A stretch of 62,960 nucleotides of DNA, the filler included, from Choristocarpus tenellus KU-1152 (taxonomy: Eukaryota; Protista; Phaeophyceae), in NCBI GenBank assembly GCA_964200185.2. It is 9 parts of 9 records of this genome, joined end to end, with 100 filler letters (N's around TTAATTAATTAA, not from the genome) between each part and the next. Parts side by side here need not be neighbours in the genome. Positions count along the whole stretch, not along the records: positions 13,783 to 20,697 come from CAXNAD020007070.1; 8 more parts are not named here. One strand, given 5' to 3'. How positions within the stretch are numbered: the first letter of the stretch is position 1; every line of letters begins with the position of its first letter. Shown here in pieces: positions 6,990 through 30,714 of this stretch. The notes under the pieces were generated by a model. That model worked only from the letters and a program-made list of their open reading frames with translations. It ran no database searches and had not been told where the DNA came from. The position numbers and the translations under genes are program-made.

Positions 6990-9900
6990 CAACAGAATAA
7001 TCTTTAGTAGGAATCTCGGGTGCCTCATCCGATCCGCACTTGAGAGGTGAACTGTCGGCACTCCGTCAACGAACGTGGCAGTCAACATCTCGAAGTCTTC
7101 CCTCACAAACACCACCTCATTACCAGCACTGAACATCCCTCCGTAGCTGGAATGGTCCCTGGAGTTCCATTTCACGGATTTCCTTCTTGTGTATGGTGAA
7201 CGGCAGGAACTCCAACCCATCATATTCCGACGGCTCCGTCCGCAAAATGCATACATTTCCCACTGCGAGCTGCCTCTTCTTCCTAGAGAGATGGCTCCTA
7301 AGGTAAATGTCACACACGTCATCCTCGGGGGAAATTCCGATGTAGACCTCCTTGAGTACAGGCACGTGAGTGCCCTGCCACTTGAAGCCCGCGACATTGC
7401 CAATTGAACAGCTGGTGCAGTAGCATGACACCTCGGTGTACATGACCTTGGATAAGCTACCGTTGCCACTTGGACTGGTGAAGAACCCGTGCATGGACTT
7501 GATGCCGCTGAACTGGGGGACAAGGTGACCATGTCCTCCCTTCCGATCGATCTTGTAAGCCGGGAGGTGAACGATCTCCTGTGTCCTGATGGTATCATTC
7601 TGGAGTAATTTTGGGAATATCTTGACGCGTACTCTGCCATGGCTGTCCCCCCAGTCCTAAGGAGTACGACGTTGTCGCGTGGCGGAAACTTAGATGTACA
7701 TACTCCTCACTATGTTAAGTACGAGGATATCAATGTTGCGGAATGATCGCGAGAGAAACAATATTGAATATGGTGTAGTCAGATTTGGTTTTTTTTAATG
7801 GTGATGGTGATGTGTAGACGGTGATATAAACTCGCCAACGACATATCTTCTTTTGTGTGCCTCGAACCTTACAGGAAGAAAGACACGCAGGGTTGGATGC
7901 TGGAACAAATGTGTTGATACTCCTCGTGTGTTGTGTGGTGGTTTGTGGAGAAGTGATATCAAAGTTGTTGTCATATGTGTTTAGGCCCTGATTGTGAAGG
8001 CGGGTTGTAACAGATAGTTGTTTGGGATTCGAGAGAGTTTGTACTTAGGGGGTGCAGGAGGATTTACCAAGAAATGTCGATACTAGTTGGAGATTATAAT
8101 GTATGTGGAATAAAAGGGAGGATGTGTCGAGTGTGTGGATGGGGGGGGGGTACCGTCCTTCTTCGTGACGACAGTCTGTCCTGGAGGAACCTTGCGATCC
8201 CTACGGAGGTGTCCCTCTTCCTCTGGCATTGGATCCCTCAGCGTGTACTGTGTCTTGATGGCCTTCATTGTCTCCTTCAAGGACAGGGTTCCCGGCATTA
8301 TACCCCGTTCAGCTCCAGCCTCCTGGCAGCTGACTTCACCACAGCTCCAACTCTATCCGCCATCGATTTGCCGTGGCAAGAGGAGAAGAAGTTGTGCACT
8401 ACTGAAATCCCCATCCTCGCAATTCACCTGGGAAACCCAATACATCTGCCACCGGTTCTTAAACCGACTTCCACAGTAGCCATAAGACCAGAGACCCAAA
8501 GTATCTGGGAGTGGGGGGGGGTCTACACCAGGGTGTCCTTTTGGATCAAAATCAGGAAAAGGGCATTTACAGTATCTATCCGGCGTATGCAACCAAATAA
8601 CCCCAAAATCGCGACATACAAAAATTGACCCCAAATGGACAGCCACCACCCCCTCCCAGATACTTTGAGCCAGATGTGGAGGACCTTCAGGGTCTGACCA
8701 TGTTCCCGGGCCAAAGGCATTAAGTGGCTGCCGATGAAAATCTACATGGCGTTCTGGACAAACTCATTGTCCTGACTCCGGTCTTCACTACAAATTGTCG
8801 TGCTGTGAGCCCATATCCTTCCCTCCCCCAGATTTCCCCCTTCCCTCGTGTCCCTCAACCACCAAGCAATGGTCAAGAGCGCTGTCAACAATAGATTGAA
8901 AAATTCTTGTTGTGTCAGGTCCTGGTGGCTGTGTGGAAGCTGGGAACTGAAGTCAATGAACATGGCAGCGTGACCTTTTGGGAGGCGGGATTTGCAATGC
9001 TTATACTGCCGCGCCTGCCGGATGGTTGTGTTGTGATGAAGGAGAAAATGACTGTGGAAGTTGGTAAAGAGGACCTTGAGGAGTGTGGGAAACCCCTCTG
9101 TCCGTGGGAATATGACCTGGTCGTACAGATGGGGGAGCAGTAGTTCTGTGGGGTCATGTTCTATATATTGGAGGAGGGGGGGGCATCCCTACCAAGTAAC
9201 GTGCTTTCTGTTGCGGAAAACTGTGTGTGTTGTTGCTTGAGTGTGTGGGATGGGGATTAGTACAGGAAAAGGCAAATACATAGTCTCACATGCGGTGTCC
9301 ACCGCCTCCCTTTGGTCCTGATGGCCACATACTGACCTTTCGCTTCTTGTTGGCCTTGTCTGAACACCCTGTGTCGTCTTCGTCGTCGTTCTCTTCGGTT
9401 GTTGTCCTCCTCGAGATGGGGTTCGACTTGCCCGCCATGCAAGTGGCGAGGATGAAGTCGTCGGTCATTAGATTCTTGGCCCTGACTACCATGTATTTCG
9501 CCTTTATCCTCTCGATTATTTCATCCTTCATTGTGCCGTTGGGAGTTACAAGCCCAAGACGAGACGACAGTGCCTTAGGCATGGCAAGTTGAAGACAGGG
9601 GTTGTGTGCGGTGTTAAGCGGGGGGTGTGTTATTGAAATCGAAAGTGTTGTTTTCCAAAAAAAATGTATGTGGTCAGAGTAACCTCTCCGATATTACAAC
9701 AATATAGAGATATTAATATTTTTTATAATTGACATGCATGGTGTTATATTGGGTTTCACTTTACATAGCCACATCTCACACCCACCTTGATCTCCTTGGA
9801 TGTCTTTCCAGCTAGGTCCCCCTCCACAATTGGGGTGTATGCGTGGACACAAACTCGTTCCATGTTACCGTGGTACGGTGGCATTGATCATACAAGGGCA

Positions 9901-11990
9901 CTTCCACATGGGGTGCTTAGTCCAGTCGCAAATATTGCATGTTCCATCCACACAAGATATTTTATAACCACCTTCTGAACCACCCGTGGACTGCTCGCCG
10001 ATGGGCTCGAGGTTGCTCCTCTCACACCTGGGCAGTCATATGGGAATCGTCGTGGGGGGATTCAGTTTAAGTCCCGAGTTGGACACATTATATGGCATTG
10101 TGTGTATTTAAGGGCATATGGGCAAGTTGCCAACGTTGAACATGGACGACAACTAGTAGATTGAGAGAAGTCATTTCGTTTGTAGGTTGGTACATGGGAG
10201 AGGATGGTATGTGCATATGGTATTGATGTTGTTGGAGCTTCGGACCAGTATAAGATTGCAGGTACAGGCACAAGTGCCATTGTCACCAACCACCGTCCGA
10301 GAGTGTACTTTGTTCCAGTTTTCCCTCAGGCATTGGACCAATAGGTCGCTGGTCATGTGGTGAACGCAAACACATGTCCTGTATTATACGCAAGGGAGAT
10401 AAGGTAGAAAGGGTCCCGATTGTTTTTTGGTGACTCTGCAAGGGGCAAAGATCGATATGTGTATCGCAGTTGAGTTGGTGGTAGTAAAGTGTTGAGCGTT
10501 GGCACTGTCCTATATGTTGTACGTCTGTTCAAACAAATAATGTGTGAAACGGTTGTGTTTCTCTACACACTTTTGAGTTGCCTTGGTGATGCAGAATGGT
10601 CTCCACTTCACGAACGTGGGCAGGCACGGTATCGGCCCATCCGTTGCCTCCATCTCAAATCTCTCTTTGAAGTTTGCGTAAACATCGTCGTCGGTTCCAA
10701 TCATTACCTTGCTTTAAACGTATGCACAGGGGGGATATAAAATACTCATGTCGTCGCGTATATGTTTGTTGTTGTACTTCAAGGAGAGAGTACACAATTT
10801 GTCGGGGTGAAGGAGCAGATTGCGGGCAGGAAGAATATAAGTGCTTTCGCTTGATGGTGGTTGTAATACAGTACCTCTGAGCGTGTTGCTGACACTGCGC
10901 ATCTGGGTGGCACACCCTTTTATTGGTGTTAGGGTCCAAGGAGTGCATTCCCTCAGCGGAATCGTGGGAAGTGATCGGGTCGTGGGGCAGGGCCGTGCTG
11001 TTGCTCTCCCAGACGGTTAGGCCAAGGATGTGTGTTTCAGGGTGCTGCACATCAAACCGTCACGAGAAACTGTCTCTTGTGTTGAATATCCTTGCCCGGT
11101 CCTTGTTCAACCTAACAATCGCGACTGAGAAGAGGAAGGGAATTTGGATGAAGGGGTGGATGTTGCTTGTTTTTTTGGTGATGTGTTGAAAGTTTCTTAG
11201 GAGTGTATAGGATACGGCGTTCCGTGTTCAAACCTTGGTGGAAGAAATTGTTTTTAGGGGGTTGCTGGATTTCTGGGTTCGAACCTTGGCTTTAATAAAA
11301 CTTATCCCCCATTGGCCTGGTGGAAGATATTGTGTTTACAGGGTTTGCTGGATTTCTGGGTTCGAGCCTTAGCTTAAAAAAAACAAATCTCATTAGGGTG
11401 GACACCCTTACTTGTCCGGTAGGGGGTGGTGCAGAGGCCTGTACGTCTTCTGTGTCGGAAGTGGGACTTGACTCTCCAATACCATCTACGGACATAGCAC
11501 TAAAACGCTTCCTATCGTCGATGAATTCTGCGCTCTTAACTGCCAAGGATCTGAGGCTGTCGATCTTGATGTTGTATCTCTTGGCCGTGTTGGATAGATT
11601 GGGTTACTATGTGGACGTCACCCCGTCGTTGAGCACTTTAACATGAGGAGCGATGGCTGCAAGGATTGAGTTGGTAGACTTGTCGAGTGTGTTGTCTGTG
11701 TTAAGGTCCTTCAACAATTCGAGGAAGGTCTTGACCTGCATGTCTATTGCAGATGCGCGTATCTCCTCGGACAATAACTCTCGCAGTACCCTTGCCAATG
11801 GTGTAAACTTCTTATCCTCGTCCAAAAACCAAGCGGCGAGGTCCATCCAAGTGTATCTGTCTCCTTCTCCCTCATTCTGCCCATATTGGTCGACAAGCAT
11901 GGAGCAGAATAGGTGAAGGATTTTATCCGTCTTGGACTTCTTCCATGACTGGAGAGTGCTGCTATTGGTTGGTCTCCCAACCCCTCACTT
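6990..11990 (-). pseudogene. Multi-exon Sola2-like DDD transposase pseudogene (copy 1)
   Basis: Motifs in order: FVKWRPFCITK|TCVCVHH (10600-10360), SCVDGTCNIC (~9950), HHNTTIRQ..K..LPKGHAAMFIDFS (D1 ~8953), LHIWS[Y]G-CGSRFKN (D2 mutated, ~8483), HNFFSSCHGKSMADRVGAVVK (D3 ~8356), MHGF..SCYCTSC (~7420); GT-AG introns, stops and frameshifts. Confidence 0.85.
8493..8671 (+). mobile_element. MITE-B (~180 bp), inserted next to transposase catalytic D2
   Basis: TIR G(A/G)C(C/T)CAAAGTATCTGGGAG; 3-bp TSD AGA; removal restores LHIW-SYG. Confidence 0.9.
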
Positions 11991-13782: not shown

Positions 13783-14388
13783 TAAGGGGGGGGGGGGGGG
13801 GGGGGGGGGGGCAGGTGCAGGGAGCGTGAAACAGGAAGAAAAAAAAACGAAAACAAGGGTTTCCGGAAAATGAATGGCGTTTGAAATGGGGGCAACAGTG
13901 GAATTTGAGGGAAAAAATCAAGGGGTTTCTAGCAAAAAAGAATGGCATTTGAAATAGGATAGCCGTGAAATTTGAGGGAAAGAATCAAAGGGTTTCCAGA
14001 AAAAGAATGGCGTTTCAAATGAGGGAAAAAATCAAGGAGTTTCCCCCCCCAAAAAAAGCCTCGAAGCAAAAAAATTCTTGTACAAAAAAAGAAAACTGTG
14101 TTTGTGATTAGAAAATTAGCACATTTTTTTTAACAGCATCTGCAGAGCACTCTGCAGGAGAAAGATGTACACCTCTTTGCCTCAAAGTTTAGACACAGTA
14201 AGAAAAAGATGTACTCCGTATATTATCGAGATTAAGGTCACACACAACTCCAAAGACATTAAAAAAAATAATAAAAGAGAAGGAAAATAAAAATAAAAAT
14301 TCCACCTCCTGCCAACATTGCGCACTATTGACCCTAAACCTAAGATAACTTGAAAACGTTTTTGCATTACACTAAACAGTAAGAAAAA

Positions 14389-15150
14389 GAGTGAAAGCAT
14401 CTCAGGGTTAGGGTTAGGGTACGAATTTCCCCCTGTTTGTCTGTTTGGGGCTTGACTTCCCATGTCTTTTCTTTTAATGATATTTTACCTACTCCAAAGT
14501 GTTTCGTAGTAGGTTAAAATGTACACGTTATGAAAAGGTGTGTCCACAACAAGGATATTGACACTTCCCAACAAACACAACAGTCAAAATTACATCAAAA
14601 AATCACAACATTGGATTTTGCCCCCCAAACGGACACAGCTCTACCCTAACCCTAAGATACTCTAAGAAACTCTAAGATATTCTAAGATACCCTAAGAAAC
14701 TCTAAGATACCCTAAGATATCCTAAGATACTCTAAGATACTCTAAGATATCCTAAGATACTCTAATAAACTCTGAGATACTCTAAGATATCCTAAGATAC
14801 TCTAAGAAACTCTAAGATATTCTAAGATACCCTAAGATACTCTAAGAAACTCTAAGATACCCTAAGATACCCTAAGATATCCTAAGATACCCTAAGATAC
14901 TCTAATAAACTCTAAGATACTCTAATAAACTCTGAGATACTCTAAGATATCCTAAGATACTCTAAGAAACTCTAAGATATTCTAAGATACCCTAAGATAC
15001 TCTAAGATATTCTAAGATATCCTAAGATACTCTAAGAAACTCTAAGATACTCTAAGATACCCTAAGATATTCTAAGATACCCTAAGATACTCTAAGATAC
15101 TCTAAGATACTCTAAGATACCCTAAGATATCCTAAGATACTCTAAGACTC
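14389..15150 (-). mobile_element. MITE-A with telomeric repeats in both TIRs and a satellite expansion in one TIR
   Basis: GAGTGAAAGCATCTCAGGGTTAGGGTTAGGGTA start; MITE-A body; ends TAAGACTC at 15150; flanks AAAA/ACAA. Confidence 0.85.
14651..15147. repeat. 10-bp minisatellite (YCTAAGATAY), ~50 units
   Basis: Direct reading; unit equals the TIR segment CTAAGATAC. Confidence 0.97.
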
Positions 15151-15719
15151 ACAACCAAGAACAACAAACACATGCGTGAGCAAGTACTTCAACAAGCATG
15201 TGCCTGTACAAAAAAATTACACAAGGGACATGAGCATGTGTGTGTGTGTGTGTGTGTGTGTTTGTTTTAATATAATAATAATCATAATAATAATAATAAA
15301 TAGTCGGAACACCCGAGCTCGTTAACTCAACTGAAAAATATCAGTTCATTTAATTATTATTATTATTATTACTATTATGGTTATTATTATCATTCTTACT
15401 ATTATGATTATTACTTCTATTATCATCATTATTATTATCATTACCTGGGTTTCTCACACATGCTTACACCCATGGAAATATGGGTATATAAAAAAAGATT
15501 ACCCTAACCCTATCCATATTTCAAGCATTATGTTAAAAAAATATGGACATAAGAAGCCCTTCTGCACATGCACACTATTATATTATTATATAACTACCAC
15601 ACCATGCAAAACATACGGAATTATTATATTAAAAAAAAGAAAGAACGAATCTAACGAGAAAATTTAGTTAAATTCTAAAAAAACAAAACATCAAGGAAAG
15701 AAAAAAAAATGGAATGCAG

Positions 15720-16170
15720 AAAAAAATATACTGATATTTAAATTCTAAAAAAACAAATGTTCACCTACGCTGGAGACCCTCTCTTTGAAATGAACACGGA
15801 CTTGCCTTCATATTTTTTTTAAATAGAACACACAAAAAAAAAAAAAGGCATTCACCTGTCAGAACTCTCCTCACTGAAAGATATGGACATCTCTTCATTA
15901 AAAAAAATATAGGAACACAAAAAAATTAAATGTTCACCTGTCAGAACTCCTTGCTGAAAAACATGGACATCTCCTTATTTATCTCAAAAAACGTATAGGA
16001 ACACAAATAAAATTAAATCAAAAAATGACGTTCACCTGCCAGAACTCCATAAAATAAAAAAGATACGGACGTCTCTTCATCTATTTTATTTAAAAATAGT
16101 AACAAAAATTAAGAATTAAAAAAATAGTTTCACCTGCCAGAACTCTCTCTGAAAGATATGGACGTCGGTG
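15720..16170. repeat. ~82-98 bp tandem repeat x5 spanning an exon/5' splice-site junction
   Basis: TTCACCTG(T/C)CAGAACTC..AAGATATGGAC-like units at 15760, 15851, 15933, 16031, 16129. Confidence 0.85.
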
Positions 16171-17527
16171 TTGAAAGCGCTCTCAAAAATCAGGATTGGA
16201 AGGAAAACAAAGAGAATAATCTCTGGACTTACATCAGCCCTGTTTCATCAAGTTGAAGCAAAAGTTATGTATGTTATGTTCTTGTGCTGTGGTAGCAGGG
16301 GTTGGTTTAGTTAGAGGCGGGGAATAGAGTTACAGGGGTACTGCATTACAAAAGTGTTGTATTATGTTGGTTGCGTTGTGTTCTATGGAGTATTATTGTG
16401 TTACAACAATGTGGTGTGTAACTGTGCTACAATGTATTGTAGTGTGTTGCATTGTATCGTATTTTAGTGTGTTGAGTTGCATTGTATCGTATTTTATTGT
16501 GTTGTATTTTATTGTGTTGTATTTTATTGTGTTGTATTTTATTGTGTTGTATTTTATTGTGTTGTATGGTGCATTACTGCATTACAATTTCTTGTAGTGT
16601 GTTGTATTTATAGTGTTGTGTTATGTTACATTGTGTTGTATGGTGTTGATGGATGAATGCTTGCAATAAAAAATGAATTTGGAATATGACATAGTGAGCG
16701 AAATCATCTAAGAGTAACTTCTAGGTAGATCAGCTTTGACTCTTTTGACCAGTAACATGCTTGTTCGTACCCTGTGAAATTTAAAATTTAAAATTTTAAC
16801 CACCTCCATACCTTAACGGAGTTAACCTCCCTAAGGACAGCAAAGCTTCCTTGTTAACACACCCTTTGCGAAAAGCACCCTAACCCCACTACATGTTATA
16901 TACTATTATTATCCTGTTAACACACCACTATTAGTGTTTAGTGCTCAAAACACATGAAGACAATGCATGTATGTATGTACCTATGCAACACGAGGGGCTT
17001 TTGAGACTCTTGATAAGACTCTTGATAACAATGGTACAGTTCAATCAGCGTCAATCAACATCAATGATCTGTTAGTTCAGAAGACGAAATGTGATACAAA
17101 TACAAATGATACAATAATATAATAATGACATTACACCTCTCAGCAACAACTATACCTTGAGCATGAATGGATGGTTGGCTGGATGGATGTTTGGATGGAT
17201 GAATGGACTGATGGATGGATGGATGGATGGATGGATGGATTGATTGATGGATGGATTGATGGATGAATGGATTAATATGGATGGATGGATGGATGGATGG
17301 ATGGATAGATGGATAGAAATACACATGCAGTTCAACACAGCACAGCGCAGCCTATATACATCCCTAACCCTACTATCCCAATCCCTACCCCCCCCCAGAA
17401 AAAAAAAATACAATCGACTTGCCACTTGTCGAGGGACTCCCCAAACCAATCCAGATCGCCGGAAGCCTGGTGCAGAATGACCCCCAATCCAAGGCCCATC
17501 AAGAGGATGATCACTGTGTATGGTATA
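16134..17527 (-). CDS. SOS1: Two internal exons (17527-17423, 16239-16134) of a SOS1/NHX7/SLC9C-like Na+/H+ antiporter
   Basis: [23 protein letters not shown]|[35 protein letters not shown] matches the SOS1 N-terminal TM region; exon phases consistent. Confidence 0.85.
16440..16570. repeat. 15-bp tandem (TGTATTTTATTGTGT)n
   Basis: Direct reading. Confidence 0.9.
17165..17315. repeat. (TGGA)n microsatellite
   Basis: Direct reading. Confidence 0.95.
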
Positions 17528-17969
17528 CTAAGGGAGAGGATCAAGAGGATCATATTCATTGGATCGATTTGATTGGAAGGGAGACAAGAAAAAAAAAGAA
17601 AAACTAAGTAATTAATTATAAAGTGTTAGCGAAATCGAAATCGCATCGGAGTTGTTTGATTTTTTTTTCATTCACAGACAGTTCAGTTCGATCGGGTTCA
17701 GTGGGGGGTTTGTTTTGTTTTGTTTGTTTTTTTAACATCATAATAATTATAATAATAAATAGTCGGAACGCCCGTTGTAACTTGCATTATAACTCGACTG
17801 AAAAATATTATTGGTTCATTTTACTATTATTATTATTAATATTATTATGTACAATAGTAATGGCAGTAGCAACAGTAAGACGAAATATAAGAAATAATAA
17901 ATATAATGATATGTAATAATGTTTAAGAGCAGTAACACGCCTTTTATCCGAGAGGAAGCAGGTCCTATG

Positions 17970-18092
17970 TTTAATTGTAATAATAATAATAAGTTTAATT
18001 GTAACGTAATAATAATAAGTTTAATTGCAACGTAACAATAATAAGTTTAATTGCAACGTAATAATAATAAGTTTAATTGTAACGTAATAATA
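17970..18092. repeat. ~23 bp tandem (AATAATAAGTTTAATTGYAACGT)
   Basis: Direct reading. Confidence 0.9.
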
Positions 18093-18487
18093 CCACCAAC
18101 TACATCTGAAACACTAATATTAACAAAATCACAGTAACGATAATTAAGAAAAAAAAACATTAAATTTTTTTTTATATATTTATTATTATTATTATTATTA
18201 TACCACAGCATGCTTCTGCGGCACTACTCTTAAAAAATGACAGCAACGACAATAAAGAAAAAATATTAAAAAATTATTAAACAGCACACGTCCGTGACAC
18301 TGCAATTAAAAAAAAAATTATTGCTACTGATAAATCACAGTAACAATCACAATAATAATAACAAATAAATAACCATCTCATAAATCTGTCATGCACACAC
18401 ACACACACACACAAATGCGCAAGCATTTTAATCAATGATAGTGCCGGAAACATTGAAATAGTATAATCAAATATAATAATTGGTAAA

Positions 18488-18519
<32 letters not shown>

Positions 18520-18622
18520 GTCTTCACAAGGCTGGTCTTCGTTATAGACTAAAATGAAACAAAAAAAACTAAAATGTCTACAAAAAATAAAAGTAAAAAG
18601 AGTGTGATTCCCTTCCTCGGAG

Positions 18623-19651
18623 CTAAACATCCCGATAGTCATAGGGTACCGACCTCTTCTTTGCCCCATCCATACCAAATCTTTGACAAACACTCTTGAT
18701 GTACCTAGTCTGACTGATGGTGACAGTCTGTGCAGTTCTGTCACGTGAAATCTCACAACCCATATAATACTCAAGATCACCAAAATCTTCTGTGGAAAAC
18801 TGCTCTTTGATCCTAGGGCAAACCCAAATCAAAACATCAATTTTACCAGCTACCAATACATCATCTACGTGGGGGGCGATCACCGCACAAACAACACCAT
18901 CTCTTACATAGCGTAACACACATGGGTCTGCTTTGCATTGCTCAAAACCACACTTTTCCAAAAAGTGCACCAACAGATTGTTGAACTCTCTGCTTGCCTG
19001 TTTGGTGCCATAAAGTGCCTTGACTAAACGCACAATCTTTCCAGACCATATACCACATCCATCACACAAACGAACAAAGATCTCTTCATTTATATCTGCT
19101 TGTATGAAAGCTTGTTTTACATCCCAATATTTCAATTCCCAACCCTTGTCTGCAGCTAAAGCTAAAGCAATTTTCAAAGATGCAGGGGACGGTGTTGGTG
19201 CAAAGGTATCTTGATAATCTAAACCCTCAATCTGTCGAAAACCTTTTGCTACCAAACGTGCCTTGTACCTAACTACCTCACCAAATTTGCTAGTCTTACG
19301 CTTGTGAATCAATTTAGTGTCTATACGAATTCATTTAGTGTATATATGAATCCATTTAGTGTATATATGAATCCTTTTAGTGTCTATATGAATCCATGTA
19401 GTGTCTATAGTCCTGCGTCCAGGGGGTAATACGGCCTCCACCCAAACATTATCCAACAACAAACCAGATATTTCTTCTGCTCTACCTCGATCCCATAAAT
19501 CACCTTCGGGAGAGCTTCGTGCTGCTCTTACAGTCTTGGGTTCTGGAGGGAGTTCATCCGCTAACACATTAATAGAATCATCACTCGCACACATCACAAG
19601 GTAGTCTCTATGGAAAACCGACGAAAAAATCAAACAATGGAACTCTTGCAA
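18623..19651 (-). mobile_element. Ty1/Copia reverse transcriptase fragment (RVT_2)
   Basis: EPKT..W..EEISGL..NVW..LPPGRRTIDT; RYKARLVAKGFRQIEGLDYQDTFAP; DVKQAF; KALYGTKQASR; HVDD; disrupted by 21-bp tandem at 19304-19408; truncated. Confidence 0.95.
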
Positions 19652-19724
19652 AATAAAACAGCGGAAAAATCAAAGAAGCTTGCGCAATGGTGACCTCAGC
19701 ATCCGGTCTCCACTTCCTGAACTC

Positions 19725-20697
19725 TCACCAATCTAGACCTCTATCCATAACAATAAACGTCTTTCTCATATTCCCCTTGTCCTCTCGATCAGTCCAGGAG
19801 ATACTATTCTCAACACCCTGGCCGCCCCCGGCATCCTGTTCTAGGTCAGGCGCACCTGGGTATGGCCCCCCCTCCTGCTGGGGTGGGGGCCCCGCAGGTG
19901 ACTCCTGTCCAACCGGCAGCTGCTGGGGCTCATAGGCTGCAGGTTCAGGCGGCGCCAGAGGCGGTGGTGGTGGTGGTGGCACTTCCTGCTACCCCTGCCC
20001 TTCCGGGCCTGATGGCCATGGGGTTCCCCCCATAGACGGCACATCACTGTCGGGCACCCTATCCAGCACCTCCATGTACCACTTGAACTGCTTGAGCAAT
20101 CCACCACCATTCTCAGCAGTTAGAGCAGTTGCTACGGTGTCATAACGCCACACCGGTGTAATGGCCACATCACCCATGATCATCCGATCATGGAAATGCC
20201 AGTCGGAGTATGCCCCACCCCGGTATGACAACCACCGCTTGACAGGCGTGAAGTAGGAGTTCCTGTAGGCTGGCACATCGACCTGGTACCCCAACTGCAC
20301 AGCCTGGGGAGGATACACCATCAGTGAGGCCACGGCCTCCATTGCTGTCTTGCCAGTCTGAATAGCTCTCACACCATACCAATGCTTAACAGCACGAGCA
20401 TTGACTGGCACCACAGGATCAATGACCCCCTGAAGCACAGAGTTAGAGGGCACTTTCGGCATGACAGGGTAAATCTCTTCCCACTGAATAGCATCTTGGC
20501 GATCATACCATGCATAGATGTCAGCCGGCACTGAGACACCAATCCCAGCCCGTAGGAAGAACCTTCCCCAACTCCCACTGATACCCAGGCTATTGCAGAC
20601 CTGGTTGCCCGCAGCTGCTATGGAGTTGACCCCACGCCTACTGTTCATCCACCGTAGCTTGTCTTGCAGGCCGAAATTCGACCGTATAGGCTCGAAA
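19725..20697 (-). other. GC-rich intronless ORF, open from the contig edge, with Pro/Gly/Ala-rich tail; candidate endogenized toti-like dsRNA-virus capsid C-terminus
   Basis: ~235 codons to TAG at 19989, then in-frame PPPPPPLAPPEPAA tail; Trp/Tyr-rich; no Copia gag/IN motifs; composition differs from neighbours. Confidence 0.45.
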
Positions 20698-20797
20698 NNN
20701 NNNNNNNNNNNNNNNNNNNNNNNNNNNNNNNNNNNNNNNNNTTAATTAATTAANNNNNNNNNNNNNNNNNNNNNNNNNNNNNNNNNNNNNNNNNNNN

Positions 20798-20817
20798 CCC
20801 CCCCAGATACTTTGAGT
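20798..20817 (+). mobile_element. MITE-B end at contig start
   Basis: CCCCCCAGATACTTTGAGTC. Confidence 0.75.
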
Positions 20818-20819
20818 CT

Positions 20820-21316
20820 GGACCCCGTTATATTCGAAGTCATCTTGCCCTGTGCATTGCACTCAAACTCATTACTTTATGTGCACAATAGTGTTCGCGA
20901 AGTTGATAGTCCCTTGTCACACACGAAGTGATACCACAATTCTCAAAAACTCCTTCTGAAATTGTACAAAATGACTTCTTTCTGCCCTTTCTTGGGATCC
21001 TTAACATGCAACCCTACCTAACCTACCTCTCAATTACTTCGGCTCTTATGCATATGAAACTGAGGCATCTTATCACTACTTGTCTTAAGACAGCTCCTTG
21101 GCTGCATTGATATCTATGTTACCTGACAATGGCTTGTTTAAAGTTTGAGATGATGTTGCTTGGTTGCGGTGTCAATTTGTGTGTGGAAGGGGGAACATTA
21201 ATTTTGGGTACACTACTGTTCACATCAAGCAGTGAAATAGAGTGTATAGCACAGGGTAAAATATGACTCAGAATGCCAAGGGGTTCAAACCTGCTTACCT
21301 CTCAGTCGGTTTGTCT
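20820..21316. mobile_element. Two partial, oppositely oriented MITE-C copies
   Basis: 20840-21045 is the reverse-complement homolog of 26555-26750; 21170-21316 is a direct homolog ending GGTTTGTCTC. Confidence 0.7.
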
Positions 21317-22559
21317 CATTATCAAACAAACAGGTGGAAAGATTATGAAAGAGAAACAAAGGACTACCGAGTAGGCATACGTCAAATTCTATCAGTGCTG
21401 AAGATATCACCAACTGAAAATGTAATAGAAGTTATGAACGAACAAATGACATGTTTTGGTCTATCTCTAATTGTTACAATGGACTTGAACCCACGCCATG
21501 AGAAATAAGTCAGGGAGCGATTTGCATAATCAAACAACAAATTGGATGAGGCATAAAAATGAGGAGTATAAATAATACAAACGTATTTAAACTTTACAGT
21601 GAATTTGATATATTCATCAATATGTCATTAACTTTAAGCTTTTTGGTGTCAAAATATGTATTGAAAAAAAAAATCAAGCTTTAATTATGAGGTATGTAAC
21701 ATATGTTGTAGTCTGTTGTTATTGAAATGCATGCTTCAAATACAATAGTTGCAATTTAACATCGATCATTTTGCAGATGACGATAATATTTTCTCCACAT
21801 AATTCCAGGTCTTGACAGGTCCCGACAATACTAACCTGCGAGCAACACACGAGCAGACATTTCCAACAAGTCAAAAGAAATCGTCCAACCACAGGTTCAA
21901 CCTCATTTCCCAAACATTCAGCATTGCAAACCCAATGGATTGTTTCACAACATACAGGCACTACATGAAGATACGTCCCTTAGCCTGTGGAGAAGTCAAA
22001 GTCCACACCTGGGTTCAAAACTGTAGCTCCAATCCGTCAACACCAACCTTGGCGGAGCTGGATCTATGTAATACGTTGCTCATTTGACAACACAAAACCT
22101 CCCATCTATTTGTTATGGTCTGACTCCGGTATTATACTACAGGATCGAGGGGATGTCTTGTAAGTAGATAGGTTTTTTTTATGTTCGTTTATATTTCACC
22201 TTAGCAGGAATGAAATCAAGCACATAAACACAGTACTATCAACTAGTGTTGATTGTTGATTCGTCCACCAATATTGGTACTTAGTCTGTAAGCAGCTAGA
22301 TCACACATTTACTAATCTGTGAGGTAAGTGAGCACGAGTCACAGTTTCAATAGTGTACATATAAATATGTATTAGTATGCCCTCGGATATTTTCCAGATT
22401 TTACCTGGGAAAAAATCAATTAATATTGTGAGGACCGCTGTAAGAGTAACAGTTGTCATAAATGTGAAAGATATCTCTCCGAAACCTATGTACTATTTGA
22501 CTATCAACTATACTACACCACTCCCATAAATGCTGCTAGTAATTACAATGGTATATGTA

Positions 22560-22705
22560 GGCTCAAAGATTCTGGTGGGGGGTGGCGGCTGTCCACTTGG
22601 TGCCCATTTTTCCATGTTGCGACTTTTGGGTGATTTGGTTGTATGTGTCGGATGGAGAATGTAAACTCACTCCTCCTGGTCAGGGCCCAAATGAACGCCC
22701 TGGTG
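22560..22705 (-). mobile_element. MITE-B degenerate copy
   Basis: GGCTCAAAGATTCTGG..GGCTGTCCACTTGG..GTTGCGACTTTTGGGTGATTTGG. Confidence 0.75.
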
Positions 22706-23179
22706 TATGTACACTGCTGCTATGCCTCCAACCTAGCTTAGCCCTACACTACAGGGCGAGGACATGTGTAAATATAGTAGCTTATTCATATCGTTATCCA
22801 TGCAGTTGAGGCTCATAATCTGCGCAGATTTAGATTGCTATTTGTGTAAGTATGGAGAAAGAAAAGAAAAATATAAGCCTCACACGATTCCCTTCGCTGT
22901 ATGTGACGAAATGGCTGAAAATAAGAAAGTGATATGATTATGCATGGTGGGACTTGATTTAGTACCTGTTGCCTATCACTAGAAAGAAGTATTCACGGTG
23001 TTTCCAGAAAACTCCATCACGATGTAGAAAATGTCTCGAACATGTTCAACCTGTAATTTATTGTTGTCAACTATTTACCCGCTAACACCTCGAATACTTT
23101 CCGCTACATAATACTGTAATTCGTATCTCGCATTATGCGCAGAATCCAGTCTCAAAGATGACGTCGAGCAAATCGGAGA

Positions 23180-23620
23180 AATGTCTGGGCAGGGCCTTTA
23201 TTTGACCTGAGTGGTTTTCAAAACCTATGGTGGGCTACCCAGGAGGCTTTCTGCACGACATGCTATTGGTCTGCAACAAGACCGGGATAGGGTGGAATAT
23301 ATTCTAAGGTTCAAAAACGAGACTACCAAGATATTTCGGGTATTCATCTGTAATGTGACAGAGGTAGAGAACATGTGCATTGCATGTGCGAGGACTGATG
23401 AGGGGACGGAGTTCAAAACTGCTAGAATTGAGGATGAGCGGGATAAGCCCAAGATAAAGGCATGTACACAGTGCCTGGAAGTCCTCAGGTCAACGGGAAA
23501 GTGGAACGGGCTGTTGTACTGATTTCAGATAAACGGATTGGTCATGATGCAGGCAGCTGGTTTGAGGGATCGACTAGGATCATGGACTGAGCCACACAAT
23601 ATGATCACCACTCTTACTAA
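23180..23620 (+). pseudogene. Degenerate Copia integrase (rve) remnant
   Basis: YILRFKNETTKIF..ARTDEGTEFK..PGSPQVNGKVER across frameshifts. Confidence 0.65.
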
Positions 23621-24890
23621 CCTGCCATGCTGTCATCAACATCGGTTACTCCCCATAATGACTCTATCACCCAATGTTCCAATCCTGTCTTGTCACATGG
23701 GGACAGGAAGCCTTGAGAGTACATCAACACGTGGAGGGACTCTCTTGTCAATTAATTCTGTGCTTCAGCATGGTGGACCTGACGGAGCAAATGCCCGATA
23801 GGAAGGAGAAACATATGTTCGGTGTGTAGAAGAAGGTACTTAGCACAGTCAAGCCCATCATCAGCCTGTCTTGCCTGTGTTTTGATCACAGGGTCGTCTA
23901 GATATAGTGGCACTTACTAGGGTATACTCGTACAACATTACAAGACTTTCGTTAATCAGACTCGCCACCTTAACCCTTCTATAAGCCCTCGCCAAGGTGG
24001 AATGGTCGCTCTAGTCGTCGCATTCATGAGGATATCTACAACTTCGACAGCAACTGGGAGATAACCCGTCTACCCCAACCTGTATAGCAAACTACTTCAG
24101 TACGTTTGGTGCGTATGTTGCTCGGATGCCAAATGTCGTAGAGGCGACTCATTCATGAAACGCACGACCTGCGCAACTTTGGTCGAAGCATAATTTGGAG
24201 CCAACGAGTCCAAGCCTTGATCCAAATATATCCCATCCTGTGTTCCATTTCTTCGGAACCATTTCTGAAAATATTTTTTGGTAGAAACCTTAAATTGTTT
24301 TTGGATTAATGTAGAATATATCAACGAATCCTACATCAAACAAAAGTTGAGTATAGTTACTTTTCGAGGATTATGAAAAATATACCCAAATTTGAATGTA
24401 TTACACAAATTCGAAAAGGGAATTTTCTGAACCCTGTCAAAACTTTCACATAACACAAAAGTGAAAGTTTATGGATATTATGAATACACATGGTTGGTCA
24501 TCAAATGGGGAAAAGAGGATAGAGGAATAGCAAATTAGGAATGAGCAAATAATAATAATAATCCAGAATTCGTGAGCAAAACAAATAATATATTTTGAAG
24601 TCAATCTTAATACATTATCAATAGAATTATGATGAATTCCAAAAAATGAAAATGTGCCCTAAAGTGCAAAACGTCCAAAAACGTCCAAAAAAGTTTGAAA
24701 CTCTCATATACGTTGACTCTTTGTAATGGACGTCATCTCGAACACCTACAACTTAACAGCACAAACTCACATAGGAGGATAAAGGAATGTGGATGTAGGA
24801 AGACAAAGGAGTACCTACCAAAAACGATCGCTCTTTTTCCTCAACATCGAGACAACACTGCATATCTATCCTATAAAGACACCTAAAACC

Positions 24891-24972: not shown

Positions 24973-26024
24973 GTGTTATCTGAATGGACATCCTTGATAT
25001 TTGAATATTATCTTACATTATCACAAATTCGTCTGGTGAAATAGTATTTCACTGAGAAATGTTTTCCCTGTCATCTTATCTCAACTATTAACCCTTTGCC
25101 GTTCATCACTTGTCCGTTGTACACTTGACACCAGTCTCCATGCATCTATGTATAATCCCTTCTCTCCATCATACTACACAATAGAACTCTTCCCCCTATA
25201 TTCAATGCATCTATCAACGTTCAACTAATTGATGATCTATATAACTCATCATATTTGCTTCTCCCCACAAATGACCTCCTTCATAATCTTCTTTCACACA
25301 AGAGATCATGCATATTCTTCTTAGCACAGTACGCTGCTTTGAACAACCAATGAGAAATAAGCACCACACACAACTTCACCAAGATTCAACTCATCCCACA
25401 ACCCATGCTCATGATTGTGCTAGAAAGTCCATTAAAATATTTCGTCAACAAACTCTTTGTCAAAAACTCAGCATAGTGAATCAGTAGGCAAATAGCCGAT
25501 AGCTAACTTTCCCTCTCTGCAGATCTCTAACTGGCAAATATGGTGGTATCGAATTCTAATGTGCTTTGTCCCACCTCCAGACATAGCCTATAGAGTGATT
25601 TTGATGGCTCCATCATTATTCTCAAACACATTATTAAGTAATCGTGACAATGTGGTTGCATGAACATGTGTACTTGCTTGAGAAGTATTAACTCTTTCCC
25701 CGACGTTACACTATGCAACATAGTTCACCTCAGTAGCAGACAATGTAGCCGTTTTATGTTCACTTTGCCTACTTCCTTCACCACCAGTAAACACACACCT
25801 CTCTACACAATTACATCAGTACTACTCCACCTGAAAGGGATAACCTACTCTCCTTATAAATGGCGTTCTCAGCATACTTGCATCAGCTTAGCCAATCAGT
25901 TGTCTCTTGATCAATCCCAATATCCTCTGAAATCCCCAAACGTGATGCCCTCCTCTCCAGTGCTCAACAGATACCCTAGATTTGAGTTGCACATCCTGTG
26001 GAGGTGAGTTCTGAGGGGCGCCTG

Positions 26025-26108: not shown

Positions 26109-26228
26109 NNNNNNNNNNNNNNNNNNNNNNNNNNNNNNNNNNNNNNNNNNNNTTAATTAATTAANNNNNNNNNNNNNNNNNNNNNNNNNNNNNNNNNNNN
26201 NNNNNNNNCTACGCTAAGTTGGAGGCAT

Positions 26229-26469
26229 AGGGTACGAGTTTTGCCCTGTTTGTCCATTTGGGGCTTGGCTTCCCTCGGATTTTTCATGACATTTTCCGAC
26301 TGCAAAATAATTTCGGAGTAGGTAAAATGTATACGTTATGAAAGATGTGTCTGGAACAAGGATATTGACACTTCCTAACAAACACGATTGCCAAAATTAC
26401 ATCGAAATTGCAACATTGAATTTTGAACCCCAAATGGACGCGGCTCTACCCTCTAAGATACTTTGGCTC
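26229..26469 (-). mobile_element. MITE-A (left TIR truncated)
   Basis: Full body; ends CTAAGATACTTTGGCTC. Confidence 0.92.
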
Positions 26470-26541
26470 TTCAGTTGTTTTCACCAACAAGAGTGGTACA
26501 ACTCTTCCCTGTCTTGGGTCAGCTTTTGTCAGTATGAGTAA

Positions 26542-26802
26542 GGGTCAAACCAACTGAGAAGTTGGCAGGGTTGTATTTTAAGGATCCCGACAAACGGCAA
26601 TAATATGGAATTTGCCACAATTGCAGAAAGAGTCTTTGCTGAATTGTTGTGTCAATTTTGAAGTGGAAAGGGGGAATATTATTTTTGCACATCTAATTGA
26701 GCATATAGATCAATTAAAATAGTGTGCAATGCACAGGGTAAAAAAGATGGCTTAGAATGCAAAAGGGTCCAAAACCCTCCAACCTCTTCATTGGTTTGTC
26801 TC
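26542..26802 (+). mobile_element. MITE-C (~260 bp), TAA target
   Basis: TIR GGGTCAAACCAACTGAGAAG / CTCTTCATTGGTTTGTCTC; TAA on both flanks. Confidence 0.7.
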
Positions 26803-28612
26803 TAAGTATAGTAGCATGGTTAATGTTCAAATCGAATGGGTACATGATGATTTCGGCTCCAGAAAAGTATATTATGACAATTCAGAGTGGTGCGCCAGGA
26901 ATATATTATTATGCCCCCTCACATTTTGGAGATGTGTGAAGGAAAAAGCAAGACCAATATCACATGGATCCCTGTAAAATGAACAGTTATCTTCAATGTG
27001 AAAGATACCTCTCTAGAATCAATTTACTACTTGAATATCAGCTATACTATAATACCCCCTTAAAGGTTGGTAACTACAATGATACGTATACATTGCTGCT
27101 ATACCCCCAACTTAGCTTAACCCTATACCAGCAGGGGAGGAGCTTGGGAAGCATCCCAACAATCTGACACAGGCTCCTTCTTACCCATTTGCCTGGTGTC
27201 TCCAGCTTGAAACACATGATATATCTTGAGAGAGCCACTTGTGTAGTGACAGGCACTAATTGTTGTAAGTAGGAGATTTGGCAGCCTCTCTCCTGGTGTA
27301 ACCTCCCGCCCCTCTCCTCCAAACTGAATGTATCGCCAACTCATCCAGAAAACGTTTTGCTTACTTACTGAGACGCCCATAACTTTCCATTGCGAAGATG
27401 TTGAGGCTAACATTACGAGAGTCAAAACAACCCCTGTAGTGGGTGCGCTTTCCCATCTAACTTGCAGCGGCAACTACACTAGTGCTGTTGGAGGAGTGGG
27501 GTAGATGGGAGGCTGCTTGTACTTCTGCAAACGTATTATCCAGGATGAGGCCTTTGTCCTTGTGGGGAACTGATCTGGTGTCAGCAAATGCCCTAGGAAG
27601 ATCGCATCCATACGGAAATTCCGGTTGAATGTGTTTGAGCTACCATTTCCATAGTGCAAAAGATGACTATTCCGTTGCAGAGTTGACCTAGATGCTTAAC
27701 CACCCGTGCATGCTAGCATATACCTATCCCCCTGCCCTAGGGTAGATACTAGCATGTTGTGTGTTGGCATTATGCCTCCTGTACCCGGCCATTGGGCACC
27801 TGTTGGATAGGGCCTCCTCCTTCCCTAGAGATCTGCCGCGGTGAGTCTAAAATCTATGGGAGGGGTCTGACTTGCTGGTTCCAGGGATGGTGTGGAGACC
27901 CATGCATGTGCACCAAGTTCTTTTTCAATTGTTTTAGCAGATGCCCTAGGAATATTTCACCGTTGGTGTTAAAGGAGGGTGTCTATGGCCATATCATTAT
28001 TGCCATATGCCATATACCGTCATACTGTTTGAGGTTCCTTGTCAGGAATCCTGGATTCCAGTGGAGGATCTTCGTTTTTTCTCCCCCCTGACACGTCTGC
28101 GAAATGTCGGAGGGCAAAAATTATATATACATGTATCATCTTTAAGACAGAGTTGATTGAATCTCTTCAAGGGACCGGTGCCACAGGTGTTGGTCTTCTC
28201 TTCATTCAGAGATATCAAGAGTCAAGGATTGCCTTTGACGTCACATGCTGTCACTCTCATGACCCGCACTCTCATGACATCCTCGTCTCCATTCTTCATT
28301 CTTGTAATTGTCCAACCTCTACCTCATCCTCTCGATTATCATTAACCTTAGTCCATCTTGTCCGTCTTACCTTGGTGAGTCGCTTCTACACCTTTCCCGA
28401 AGTGAACCATACCATCATAGAACCGCACTATTCACACTATACACTGTTAGTGACACACTGTGCATACCCCACAAATTTCTACGTGGTTGTCAAAATTGCA
28501 AAGCTCCCATGTTGGGTCCGTTCCTGCATGTGCCAGGAGCTGGAAATATTACTTTTCTGGCGGTCAAGTTACCCACTGCGTATATTATATAGCCTTTAAT
28601 ATATTAAATTTA

Positions 28613-28872
28613 ATGCCAAACCAGTTGAGAGGTAGGCAGGTTTGCACCCTTTGTGTATGGAAAGTGGGGAAATTAAAATTTGCGTACACTATTGTGCACA
28701 TATAGCAATGAAATAGGGTGTATTGCACAGGTTAAGAAATATTACTTGAATGCGAAAGAGATACTACAATTCTGGAACTGTTCTTCCTGCAATCGTACGA
28801 AAACGGCATATATTGGCCCTTCCTTGGGATCCTTGAAATGCAGCCCTGCCTACCTCTGAATTGGTTTGATTC
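28613..28872 (-). mobile_element. MITE-C, TTA target
   Basis: CAAACCAGTTGAGAGGTAGGCAGG..CCTGCCTACCTCTGAATTGGTTTG; TTA on both flanks. Confidence 0.75.
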
Positions 28873-29936
28873 TTACCGTTCAGCTAGGTGATATTTCTCA
28901 CCCTTTGGAAGCTTGGTACAACATATGATAGGTCCAGACTTGACTAAGGTCCTGACGGTATATTCTGTTATACTTCGAAGTGTGTTGGAAGCTTTGGATC
29001 CGTTATGATTATTGCTCTGAAAGCCGTTTCTTTTTCAAATAGTGGACCATCGTATTTTAAAGCACAAGCCACACACCACTGTGTGTTGTCCTCTTCTACA
29101 GTTATTCGAATATTGACCAAGGCCTTGCACCAAGTCATCATACCGCAACAACACCTATCTCCCTTTTCACTCAGTGATGACACTTACATTTCCCCTGAAT
29201 CAGAAAGTGTACTGTTTATGGTTCTTAGCCCGAGTTCTCCAGGTCTTACCACCTACCTCATATGCAGTCCTTGAATCCATATCATCTTTTATATTTTCAC
29301 CCTATTGAAAGGTCGGATCTGGGGCAGCGTATTGCAGTAATACATTCTCATGCAATGTGGCAAACTGGTGACCGTTCATCTTTTCAAGTTGCCAAAATCT
29401 TCCAGTTACGAAATTTGCACTGAATTAGGTGCAAAAATACTGGGATATTTTTCCGATTGGCATGAAATCACCGAACTTTTCCCTTCCAAGTTCTTTCTGT
29501 ATCTGACATATCAAACAAACAAATCTCCCATCTGATCGATTGAGTAGAATTTATGGTCCACTTGACCCATCATTCACTAGCACATCCAATATATTGAAAT
29601 CAAGGTTCAGACATTTCGGATTTTGTGCTAGGTATTGTTCAGGTTTTCACTGAATCCATCTGGCTCAGGTCCTTTCACAATAGCTTAAGCAGAATTTCCA
29701 CTACTTCAGCCTGGAACTGGACCCAATGATAGAGCTCCTTATACTTCAAACCCTCACATTAGACGTATAATTGTTGAGGTTGTAGTTATCTCGAGAACGA
29801 AGGTATTACTGAACAGCAGCAATGCCTCTGGGGTTTTCCTGTTTCCATTGTGATGGAATTAGAGGCAAGCCTCGATTCTGTGTGGGTTATAGGGTCAAAT
29901 TTGGATCTTATCAGGGAGGCTTGACCCATGCCAAGT

Positions 29937-30196
29937 GAGTGAAAGTATCTTAGAGGGCAGGGGTTTTGCCCTGTTTGTCCATTTGGGGCTTGGCTTTCCC
30001 ACGTTTTTTTTAATGACATTTTACCTACTCCGAAATGTTTTGGAGTACGTAAAATGTATACGTTATGAAAAGGTGTGTCCAGAACAAGGATACTGACACT
30101 TCCTAACAAACACGATAGTCAAAATTATATCAAAATCGCAATATTGGATTTTGACCCCAAATGGACACGGGCCTACCCTTGAAGATAATATAAGTT
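29937..30196 (-). mobile_element. MITE-A
   Basis: GAGTGAAAGTATCTTAGAGGG start, degenerate far end. Confidence 0.9.
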
Positions 30197-30714
30197 AAGC
30201 ATCAAGGTGCATATCACAAAACTCCATTGGAGTTGCAAAGTTCAATAACGTAGAGGACACTCGATCTGCCTATCATCTGCTCCCATTGACTCTAGGTGAG
30301 ATTGAGAAGACAGCTTTTGTCAATCATAGAGCGATATTTGTCTTTTTTTTGACGAATGCCCTCTGGTATCGCAAATACTCCTTGATTATATTAACACATG
30401 ATATCCCTTGCCTTATCAGATTTTGGTACCAATTCAGGACTTCTCTATCATATGGATGATCTCACAGTATGTTGTTCTTCATGGGAGCACCATCTACTAT
30501 TGCTTGAGTCCATGATACCCTCTCTTTTGAAATAGCAGGGTCACACCATAGGCATCTAAAGATAGTATCTGGCCCAGCAAGTGTGAAAAATTTTGGTATC
30601 CAGATTTTCCGGGCTGGTATTTGAATTGTTGAAGGATGAGCAGACGAAATAAAATACGTCCCTAAACTTAGCATAATTATATAGGTTCACTCCGTGTTGG
30701 GGTATACCTTTATT

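What the first reader, a model, noticed from the sequence alone, without database searches (positions are those of the whole stretch)
18623..20697. Candidate RNA-virus capsid sequence joined to a Copia reverse transcriptase
Seen: an intronless, visibly GC-richer ORF runs on the minus strand from the contig edge (FEPIRSNFG..WYDRQDAIQWEEIYP..YRNSYFTPVKRW..GDVAITPVW) into a Pro/Gly/Ala-rich tail. Within ~100 nt, on the same strand, it gives way to the AT-richer Copia IN-RT linker and RT, occupying the place where integrase should be. It has no gag or integrase motifs. Known: victorivirus/toti-like capsids end in Ala/Gly/Pro-rich tails, and non-retroviral RNA viruses can be endogenized by LTR-retrotransposon RT template switching. 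Inference: either a Copia-mediated capture of a dsRNA virus of this host or a Copia lineage carrying a captured capsid. It apparently lies inside an upstream intron of the SOS1-like gene.
Basis: partly seen in the sequence, partly recalled or inferred. Interest (0 to 1): 0.8.

Follow-up and report, generated by a model that had tools for sequence, protein, structure and literature searches.

The report
Fossil dsRNA-virus capsid fused to Copia
A broken piece of the coat gene of a toti-like RNA virus sits, likely as a single copy, in the DNA of what is likely a brown seaweed, joined end to end to a fragment of an abundant Copia retrotransposon whose reverse transcriptase likely copied it into DNA, so it would be a fossil record of an RNA virus group that our searches did not find reported from brown algae.

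Summary
Core idea supported, details corrected. The minus-strand frame 20696-19992 (235 aa) matches residues ~420-650 of 1,000-1,900-aa capsid proteins of toti-like dsRNA viruses (best E 7e-21, 28% identity). [quoted passage not shown] The best relative's model matches the L-A/PcV capsid fold. Corrections: (1) an in-frame stop at 19991-19989 splits the ORF; (2) the junction is near 19818, not 19690; (3) the Pro-rich stretch is an internal hinge and the capsid is cut there; (4) the Copia part is a 1.18-kb internal fragment without integrase, RNase H or LTR. The viral part shows unique-sequence depth in two public runs while the Copia part is hundreds of times deeper, and other Copia copies carry different sequence past 19818, so this is not a capsid-bearing Copia lineage. 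One run's contig reaches 30 letters across the junction and 1,389 nt further into the gap, about the length of the missing capsid start. Best reading: a decayed endogenous virus-Copia chimera made by reverse-transcriptase template switching (0.55), in a likely Discosporangiales brown alga. Known process, apparently new host group.

The parts
19992..20696 (-). Last third of a toti-like (Ghabrivirales-type) capsid core, 235 codons, open at the contig edge
   Evidence: matches residues ~426-631 of P0001, ~435-630 of PpRV2 coat protein; invariant residues W72 E74 P83 W106 D165 kept
19989..19991 (-). In-frame TAG that breaks the capsid frame
   Evidence: run X1's contig shows no other letter here (1 difference in 909 nt); none of 31 relatives ends here
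19819..19988 (-). Pro/Gly/Ala-rich hinge that follows the capsid core (19 Pro in 56 codons), cut at the junction
   Evidence: profile match extends from position 646 to 687 when read through with X; relatives are Pro/Gly/Ala-rich at this place
19815..19819 (.). Virus-Copia junction (approximate)
   Evidence: X1 depth falls from 783 (19728-19851) to 16 and 12.5; loose ends of other Copia copies behind 19817-19818 in X2 and X3; X1 contig 7 covers 19789-20697
19601..19818 (-). Copia-family sequence upstream of RT (position of the integrase-RT linker; T-rich, stops in all three frames)
   Evidence: repeat-level depth in three runs; stops; no protein homology shown, so 'linker' is by position only
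18639..19600 (-). Decayed Ty1/copia RT fragment, cut before the RT C-terminus and RNase H; one stop at 19333-19331 inside a 21-nt tandem expansion (19305-19430)
   Evidence: loose ends before 18639 in three runs
20698..20797 (.). Assembly spacer (44 N + TTAATTAATTAA + 44 N); the viral sequence runs into it
   Evidence: X1 contig 7 goes 1,389 nt past 20697 and no such record is among the longest pieces laid on 20798-24500
17423..17527 (-). Likely internal exon of the host Na+/H+ antiporter gene (context)
   Evidence: AG acceptor in the sequence; X3 depth pattern fits these bounds; no significant family match on its own
16134..16238 (-). Exon of a SLC9C1/SOS1-like Na+/H+ antiporter (context)
   Evidence: PF00999 E 5e-4, under the curated cut-off; SLC9C1 E 2e-7, NHX7/SOS1 E 5e-5

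Best explanation
This is a broken fragment of a toti-like dsRNA virus capsid gene joined on the same strand to an internal piece of a high-copy Copia retrotransposon, likely a single-copy fossil made when the Copia reverse transcriptase switched from its own RNA to viral RNA. Shown: capsid homology, the fold of the best relative, one stop in the capsid frame, a junction near 19818, a Copia piece cut at both ends, unique-level depth of the viral part. Inferred: viral plus-strand RNA was present in or near a Copia particle in an infected alga; minus-strand synthesis, which copies Copia RNA from 3' to 5', passed RT, jumped in the integrase-RT linker onto the GC-rich hinge of the viral RNA and went on towards the viral 5' end, which gives exactly 'virus 5' part, then Copia 3' part'; the chimera entered the genome and later lost, or never had, the Copia 3' end; it has since decayed neutrally. 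It would make no virus, no mobile element and probably no protein.
For: Capsid identity: 38 hits, 11 at E<=1e-10. Of 30 hits looked up, 4 are named viral coat or capsid proteins, 5 'hypothetical', 21 unnamed, none cellular or TE, and their longest contigs are 2.7-9.4 kb. The model of P0001 1-659 (pLDDT 85.9) gives 8 of 8 Foldseek PDB hits at E<=0.001 that are dsRNA-virus capsids; the top 9 VIA hits are all such capsids (PcV Z 13.6, rmsd 4.9, 423 aligned; L-A Z 10.6, rmsd 5.0, 461 aligned; next unrelated Z 3.1); BFVD best is Ahus virus, E 2e-38, TM 0.79. In DNA: two runs that cover intronic and intergenic DNA hold it at unique-level depth (X1 11.3 against 16.8-23.1; X2 5.5 against 2.8-8.6). Junction: an X1 contig with 1 difference in 909 nt runs from the viral part 30 letters into the repeat, where a 31-letter-word assembler would stop (inference). 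Same-strand, virus-5'/Copia-3' order fits copy choice. The Copia family is native (RT 72-87% identical to proteins labelled Choristocarpus tenellus). The 1,389 nt that contig holds beyond the edge match the 1,185-1,386 nt of capsid missing in 26 of 31 relatives. One stop in 292 codons is what 2-8% neutral change would give. Virus-Ty1/copia hybrids are documented in mosquito cells (PMC6797480, passages).
Against: The junction is bridged by only 30 letters, one short of the tool's 31-letter rule, in one run that may be the source of the assembly; X2 lists no contig over 19852-19975. Viral depth in X1 is about half to two thirds of neighbouring unique contigs, which may be GC bias, a hemizygous insertion or another organism's DNA. 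No LTR, PBS, polypurine tract or target-site duplication was found, so integrase-mediated insertion is not shown. The Copia family is so abundant that a chance neighbourhood cannot be excluded. The parent virus is unknown (best identity 26-37%), so microhomology at the junction cannot be tested, and the tree does not place the fragment with strong support.
Confidence: 0.55

Rival explanations
1. A real endogenous toti-like capsid fragment, but its contact with Copia is secondary: viral cDNA made by some RT was patched into or beside an old Copia copy at a DNA break, or a later deletion brought the two together.
For: The Copia piece is cut at both ends and has no LTR; the family is hundreds of times deeper than unique DNA and the window is rich in repeats, so adjacency by chance is not negligible; the copy differs from the dominant family letter at 27 of the 39 listed places in the Copia part (74 further rows were not shown).
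Against: Direct, same-strand, gap-free junction in the order that minus-strand copy choice predicts; no host filler seen at the junction.
Confidence: 0.3
2. Artefact: the capsid DNA belongs to a co-cultured organism (for example an oomycete, diatom or fungus with its own endogenous copy) or to a library chimera, and was joined to the alga's Copia repeat by the assembler.
For: Contig edge, fragmented assembly, half depth in X1, junction cover in one run only, all three runs from one study; named relatives come from oomycete, green-algal and crab samples.
Against: A second assembly of the reads carries the junction at depth 11 with 30 letters of this alga's Copia family; a second sample (X2) holds the capsid part at a depth like its neighbours; CpG depletion like the host's (0.45-0.48 against 0.61 window-wide) is weakly consistent with residence in this genome.
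Confidence: 0.08
3. A kept, working gene: the host expresses the capsid core as a stand-alone protein that ends at the TAG (a decoy capsid against related viruses), or the TAG is a natural leaky stop of the parent virus ahead of a Pro-rich read-through hinge.
For: 235 codons without stop or frameshift, all 5 invariant residues kept; the stop falls just after the folded core of the relative's model (ordered to about residue 636); the unseen 1,389 nt could hold the rest of the core; maintained totivirus-like capsid genes exist in yeasts (PMC2805616, passages; PMC6166632, listing and start of abstract only).
Against: One stop is also what neutral decay predicts; none of 31 relatives ends there; no ortholog or second copy is available for a test of selection.
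Confidence: 0.05
4. A Copia lineage that replaced gag-integrase by a captured viral capsid and spreads with it.
For: The capsid sits where integrase would be, on the same strand.
Against: Capsid at unique-level depth against hundreds to thousands for the Copia part; other copies continue with other sequence at 19817-19818; RT broken and cut, no RNase H or LTR.
Confidence: 0.02

Closest known systems
[quoted passage not shown]
   Same: Homologous last third of the capsid core followed by a Pro/Gly/Ala-rich hinge; same predicted fold as the Ahus virus protein for the best relative. [quoted passage not shown]
   Different: Only 23-37% identical; lies in host DNA; has a stop; lacks the 226-1,105 aa that relatives carry after the hinge; no RdRp or other capsid part in the window.
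Non-retroviral integrated RNA virus sequences (NIRVs) from totiviruses in yeasts and other eukaryotes
   Same: DNA copy of a toti-type capsid gene in a nuclear genome (PMC2805616, passages; Liu et al. 2010 as described in PMC3136472).
   Different: In the yeast cases the retroelement signature was 'not obvious' in the flanks and the genes are under purifying selection; here a direct Copia junction survives and the frame is broken; the host is likely a brown alga.
Virus-LTR retrotransposon chimeric cDNA (Sindbis/CFAV with Ty1-copia and Ty3 in Aedes cells; LCMV-IAP in mice)
   Same: RNA-virus sequence joined directly to LTR-element sequence, explained by copy choice during reverse transcription (PMC6797480, passages; Geuking 2009 seen only as a reference title).
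   Different: Those were caught in experiments in animals, with ssRNA viruses; Aedes genomic NIRVs sit mostly beside Ty3/gypsy and Pao, not copia (PMC5497376, passages). Here it is a genomic fossil of a dsRNA virus in a stramenopile.

Membership tests
Toti-like dsRNA virus capsid (Ghabrivirales type) | Sequence homology to capsid ORFs of toti-like viruses | tested here: met
Toti-like dsRNA virus capsid (Ghabrivirales type) | L-A/PcV-like capsid fold | tested here: met
   Met through the best relative P0001, folded with an alignment that holds the window's fragment. The fragment folded alone gave no usable model (pLDDT 31.5).
Toti-like dsRNA virus capsid (Ghabrivirales type) | Linked RdRp ORF downstream (needed to assign a virus family) | tested here: not met
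   Copia sequence follows the hinge; the family of the parent virus cannot be assigned
Victorivirus-type capsid | Match to the Pfam totivirus coat family (family recalled) | tested here: not met
   No Pfam match for the fragment or for 35 family-like relatives
Victorivirus-type capsid | Ala/Gly/Pro-rich region at the very C-terminus | tested here: not met
   31 of 31 relatives continue 226-1,105 aa past the core
Non-retroviral endogenous viral element | Present as DNA, contiguous with host sequence | tested here: inconclusive
   Held by two runs with genomic-type cover at unique-level depth; junction bridged by 30 letters in one run only; run kind is not on record
Non-retroviral endogenous viral element | Signs of decay or orthologous insertion in relatives | tested here: inconclusive
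   One in-frame stop and truncation; no genome of the host or a relative was available
Ty1/copia retrotransposon (intact element) | RT of the RVT_2 family | tested here: met
   E 2e-46
Ty1/copia retrotransposon (intact element) | gag, protease, integrase upstream; RNase H, PPT and LTRs | tested here: not met
   Piece spans 19818-18639 only; relatives' RT/RNase H continue where the window stops matching; no LTR-like repeat, PBS or PPT in 17500-20697. What lies in the gap is unseen.
RT template-switch chimera | Direct same-strand junction, virus 5' part then retroelement 3' part | tested here: met
RT template-switch chimera | Retroelement ends (LTR, target-site duplication) or junction microhomology with the parent virus | not testable with these tools
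   Parent virus unknown; far end lies in the assembly gap

The most novel reading that the evidence does not exclude
The unassembled 1,389 nt hold the rest of the capsid, so the alga carries a complete toti-like capsid core captured from the viral 5' end by one Copia template switch: the first fossil of this virus group in brown algae, a frozen capture junction, and possibly a kept decoy-capsid gene that ends right after the folded core.
Probability: 0.15. Interest if true: 0.72.

Novelty: new member of a known kind. Interest (0 to 1): 0.47.

Why it matters
Most viruses of this toti-like group come from mixed samples with uncertain hosts (PMC9927876, passage). A copy in chromosomal DNA would tie the group to brown algae, where the papers read report endorna-, virga-, tymo-, phenui-, tombus-, bunya- and narna-like RNA viruses but no toti-like one (passages), and where work on endogenous viruses concerns giant DNA viruses. 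A surviving virus-Copia junction is also direct anatomical support, outside animals, for the route by which RNA viruses are thought to enter genomes. It stays a single broken fragment in a fragmented assembly, so it extends a known process and does not reveal a new one.

Tried and rejected
Word-index searches found no relatives of the fragment (longer proteins, profile returned only P0001); PDB sequence searches were blank; the ESM Atlas gave no usable hit for the fragment or for P0002 1-645. No related locus was found in viral or metagenome contigs, so no relative's RdRp or nucleotide sequence could be examined. The single-sequence fold failed. No whole genome is held, so copy number was not counted in an assembly. 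No RNA holder is listed; run X3, whose cover looks like spliced RNA (exon covered, introns not; inference), has no cover over 20100-20697, which is not counted as evidence on expression. Three of the 38 hits (P0019, P0024, P0032) are repetitive proteins and were treated as chance; A1 used 31 of the other 35 and A2 all 35. The tree gave no strongly supported group for the fragment. A motif scan found no further antiporter exon on the minus strand of the window. Four look-ups of earlier findings returned nothing. Rejected: one continuous ORF; junction at 19690; victorivirus tail; cellular or TE origin of the frame; capsid-bearing Copia lineage. A possible intron in the T-rich Copia stretch 19730-19610 was considered; no matching joint was listed (table cut).

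Full report
What is in the sequence. The contig 13783-20697 ends at a 100-base spacer (44 N, TTAATTAATTAA, 44 N; eight such spacers and two 10-N gaps in the window). From the edge, a minus-strand frame runs 235 codons (20696-19992) to a TAG at 19991-19989, then 87 more codons to 19728. G+C is 55% in the core, 70% in 19819-19991, 42-43% in 18639-19818, 32% downstream and 38% across the gap. Downstream on the same strand lies a Ty1/copia RT (PF07727, E 2e-46).

The frame is a toti-like capsid fragment. Pfam, PDB sequences, word-index searches and the ESM Atlas were blank, but a full HMMER scan of 1.84 billion representatives gave 38 hits at E<=0.001, 11 at E<=1e-10, best 7e-21 at 28% identity. 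Three are repetitive chance hits; the other 35 are mostly 1,000-1,900 aa long and match around residues 420-650. [quoted passage not shown] The fragment alone did not fold. The best relative (P0001, residues 1-659, 36-row alignment including the fragment) folded at pLDDT 85.9. All 8 Foldseek PDB hits at E<=0.001 are dsRNA-virus capsids (L-BC, L-A, PcV, TVV); of 48,161 chains, the top 9 by VIA-align are such capsids (PcV Z 13.6, rmsd 4.9, 423 aligned; L-A Z 10.6; next unrelated Z 3.1); the best BFVD match is an Ahus virus protein (E 2e-38, TM 0.79), with oomycete-associated toti-like viruses close behind. A profile of 31 relatives scores the frame 176 bits against at most 7.5 for 200 shuffles, the reverse and 1,682 other pieces of the window (rows chosen with the query). 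The tree puts it near P0001, P0008 and P0010 without strong support.

It is not a victorivirus tail. All 31 aligned relatives continue 226-1,105 aa beyond the core, most with a Pro/Gly/Ala-rich stretch first; no other part of them matches anywhere in the window. So the Pro-rich stretch is an internal hinge and the capsid gene is cut in it. Twenty-six of 31 relatives have 395-462 aa before the point where the contig starts.

Where the junction is. Three public runs of one study hold the stretch (kind not on record). Laid at 85% identity, summed depth in X1 is 5,100-11,000 over 18612-19603, 1,201 and 783 over 19604-19851, then 16, 12.5 and 11.3 over the viral part. Loose ends of other copies lie behind 19817-19818 (X2, X3) and before 18639 (all three). 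The Copia-family piece is therefore 19818-18639, about 1.18 kb. It starts about 220-280 nt upstream of the RT start, at the position of the integrase-RT linker (by position only), and stops inside RT: six related proteins stop matching at 18638, five of them with sequence left over. It has a stop inside a 21-nt tandem expansion, differs from the dominant letter at 27 of 39 listed places (74 rows not shown), and has no LTR-like repeat, PBS or polypurine tract nearby.

Is it real? An X1 contig of 2,298 nt (depth 11.3) covers 19789-20697 with one difference, so it carries the stop and 30 letters on the Copia side, one short of the tool's bridging rule but what a 31-letter-word assembler leaves at a repeat (inference). 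X2, another sample, holds 20082-20654 at depth 5.5 but lists nothing over 19852-19975. Unique neighbours have depth 16.8-23.1 in X1 and 2.8-8.6 in X2. Depth is not a copy number, but the viral part behaves as unique DNA and the Copia part as a large family; the lower X1 depth may mean GC bias, hemizygosity or foreign DNA. X1 may be the source of the assembly, so the junction lacks independent proof. The X1 contig runs 1,389 nt past the edge and no such record is among the longest pieces laid on 20798-24500; this length fits the 1,185-1,386 nt of missing capsid, but the sequence could not be read.

Host and setting. The RT is 72-87% identical to proteins labelled Choristocarpus tenellus and 44-66% to ones labelled Discosporangium mesarthrocarpum among the best hits, against mostly under 45% for the rest, so the host is likely a Discosporangiales brown alga and the Copia family is native. 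An exon at 16238-16134 matches SLC9C1/SOS1-type antiporters. A likely exon at 17527-17423 begins at an AG and fits the cover of run X3, which looks like spliced RNA (inference). That implies an exon further upstream, so the insertion may be intronic, but no such exon was found and contigs across the spacers may be unrelated.

How it most likely arose. Minus-strand synthesis copies Copia RNA from 3' to 5' (established retroelement biology, recalled); a jump in the linker to viral plus-strand RNA gives 'virus 5' part, then Copia 3' part' on one strand, which is the order seen. Hybrids of RNA viruses with Ty1-copia and Ty3 elements were sequenced from mosquito cells and ascribed to copy choice without sequence homology (PMC6797480, passages). 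One stop in 292 codons fits 2-8% neutral change (expected 0.7-2.9). I put this at 0.55. The main rival (0.30) is secondary adjacency to one of very many Copia copies; artefact 0.08; kept gene or natural leaky stop 0.05; capsid-bearing Copia lineage 0.02.

What is known. Totivirus-like genes in nuclear genomes are known from yeasts and other eukaryotes (PMC2805616, passages; PMC3136472, passages), RNA-virus sequences near retroelements from Aedes (PMC5497376, passages) and Symbiodiniaceae (PMC9651163, passages); a totivirus-like case in the red alga Chondrus is recalled, not read. For brown algae, searches listed no report of a toti-like virus or RNA-virus insertion (listings and starts of abstracts). 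Passages of PMC7511793 and 10.1101/2022.02.07.479358 name other RNA-virus groups in brown algae and toti-like ones in red and green algae and diatoms. The terms 'RNA virus', 'totivir' and 'Riboviria' do not occur in the main text of 10.1101/2024.02.19.579948 (supplements not seen and may bear on this), nor 'RNA virus', 'toti' or 'dsRNA' in PMC12993054. Passages of PMC9927876, PMC8538416, PMC8973213 and PMC12548735 were read for the virus group. The library lacks most subscription journals, so 'unreported' is provisional.

Verdict. A real-looking, decayed toti-like endogenous viral element with a preserved Copia junction: a new member of a known kind, in a host group where it seems unrecorded. 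Interest 0.47.

Noticed in passing
window 17423-17418 (minus strand): The likely antiporter exon joins the next exon in frame if the donor is GC (GCAAGT) and not the GT nine bases further on; X3 cover fits either, slightly better the GC site.
   Followed up: partly
window 18612-19818: In run X3, whose cover looks like spliced RNA, this Copia family has summed depth of 7,000-35,000 against about 150 for the antiporter exon: the family may be strongly transcribed. Run kind is not on record and contig depth cannot rank genes.
   Followed up: no
window 19730-19610 (minus strand): The Copia-family stretch upstream of RT has stops in all three frames, a GTGAG at 19728 and a T-rich run ending in AG near 19609: it could be an intron or non-coding spacer inside pol; no joint was listed for it.
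   Followed up: partly
window 20631: Both X1 and X2 read T where the window has C: an assembly error or an allele in the capsid frame.
   Followed up: no
window 25483-25788 (minus strand): A separate, older Copia RNase H remnant (30% identity to P0047, E 3e-7) in the next contig.
   Followed up: no
whole window: CpG is depleted (observed/expected 0.61; 0.45-0.48 in the viral part). DNMT1 is reported as kept in Discosporangium but lost in other brown algae (10.1101/2024.02.19.579948, passage), so this lineage may methylate DNA.
   Followed up: no
window 42143-43165 (+): 341-codon frame with an extracellular beta-helix-like start; weak Pfam Amnionless match (E 8e-5, under cut-off).
   Followed up: no
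window 14650-15140: Long array of a 10-nt unit (GTATCTTAGA-like) beside a dispersed repeat that recurs many times in 26200-32800.
   Followed up: no
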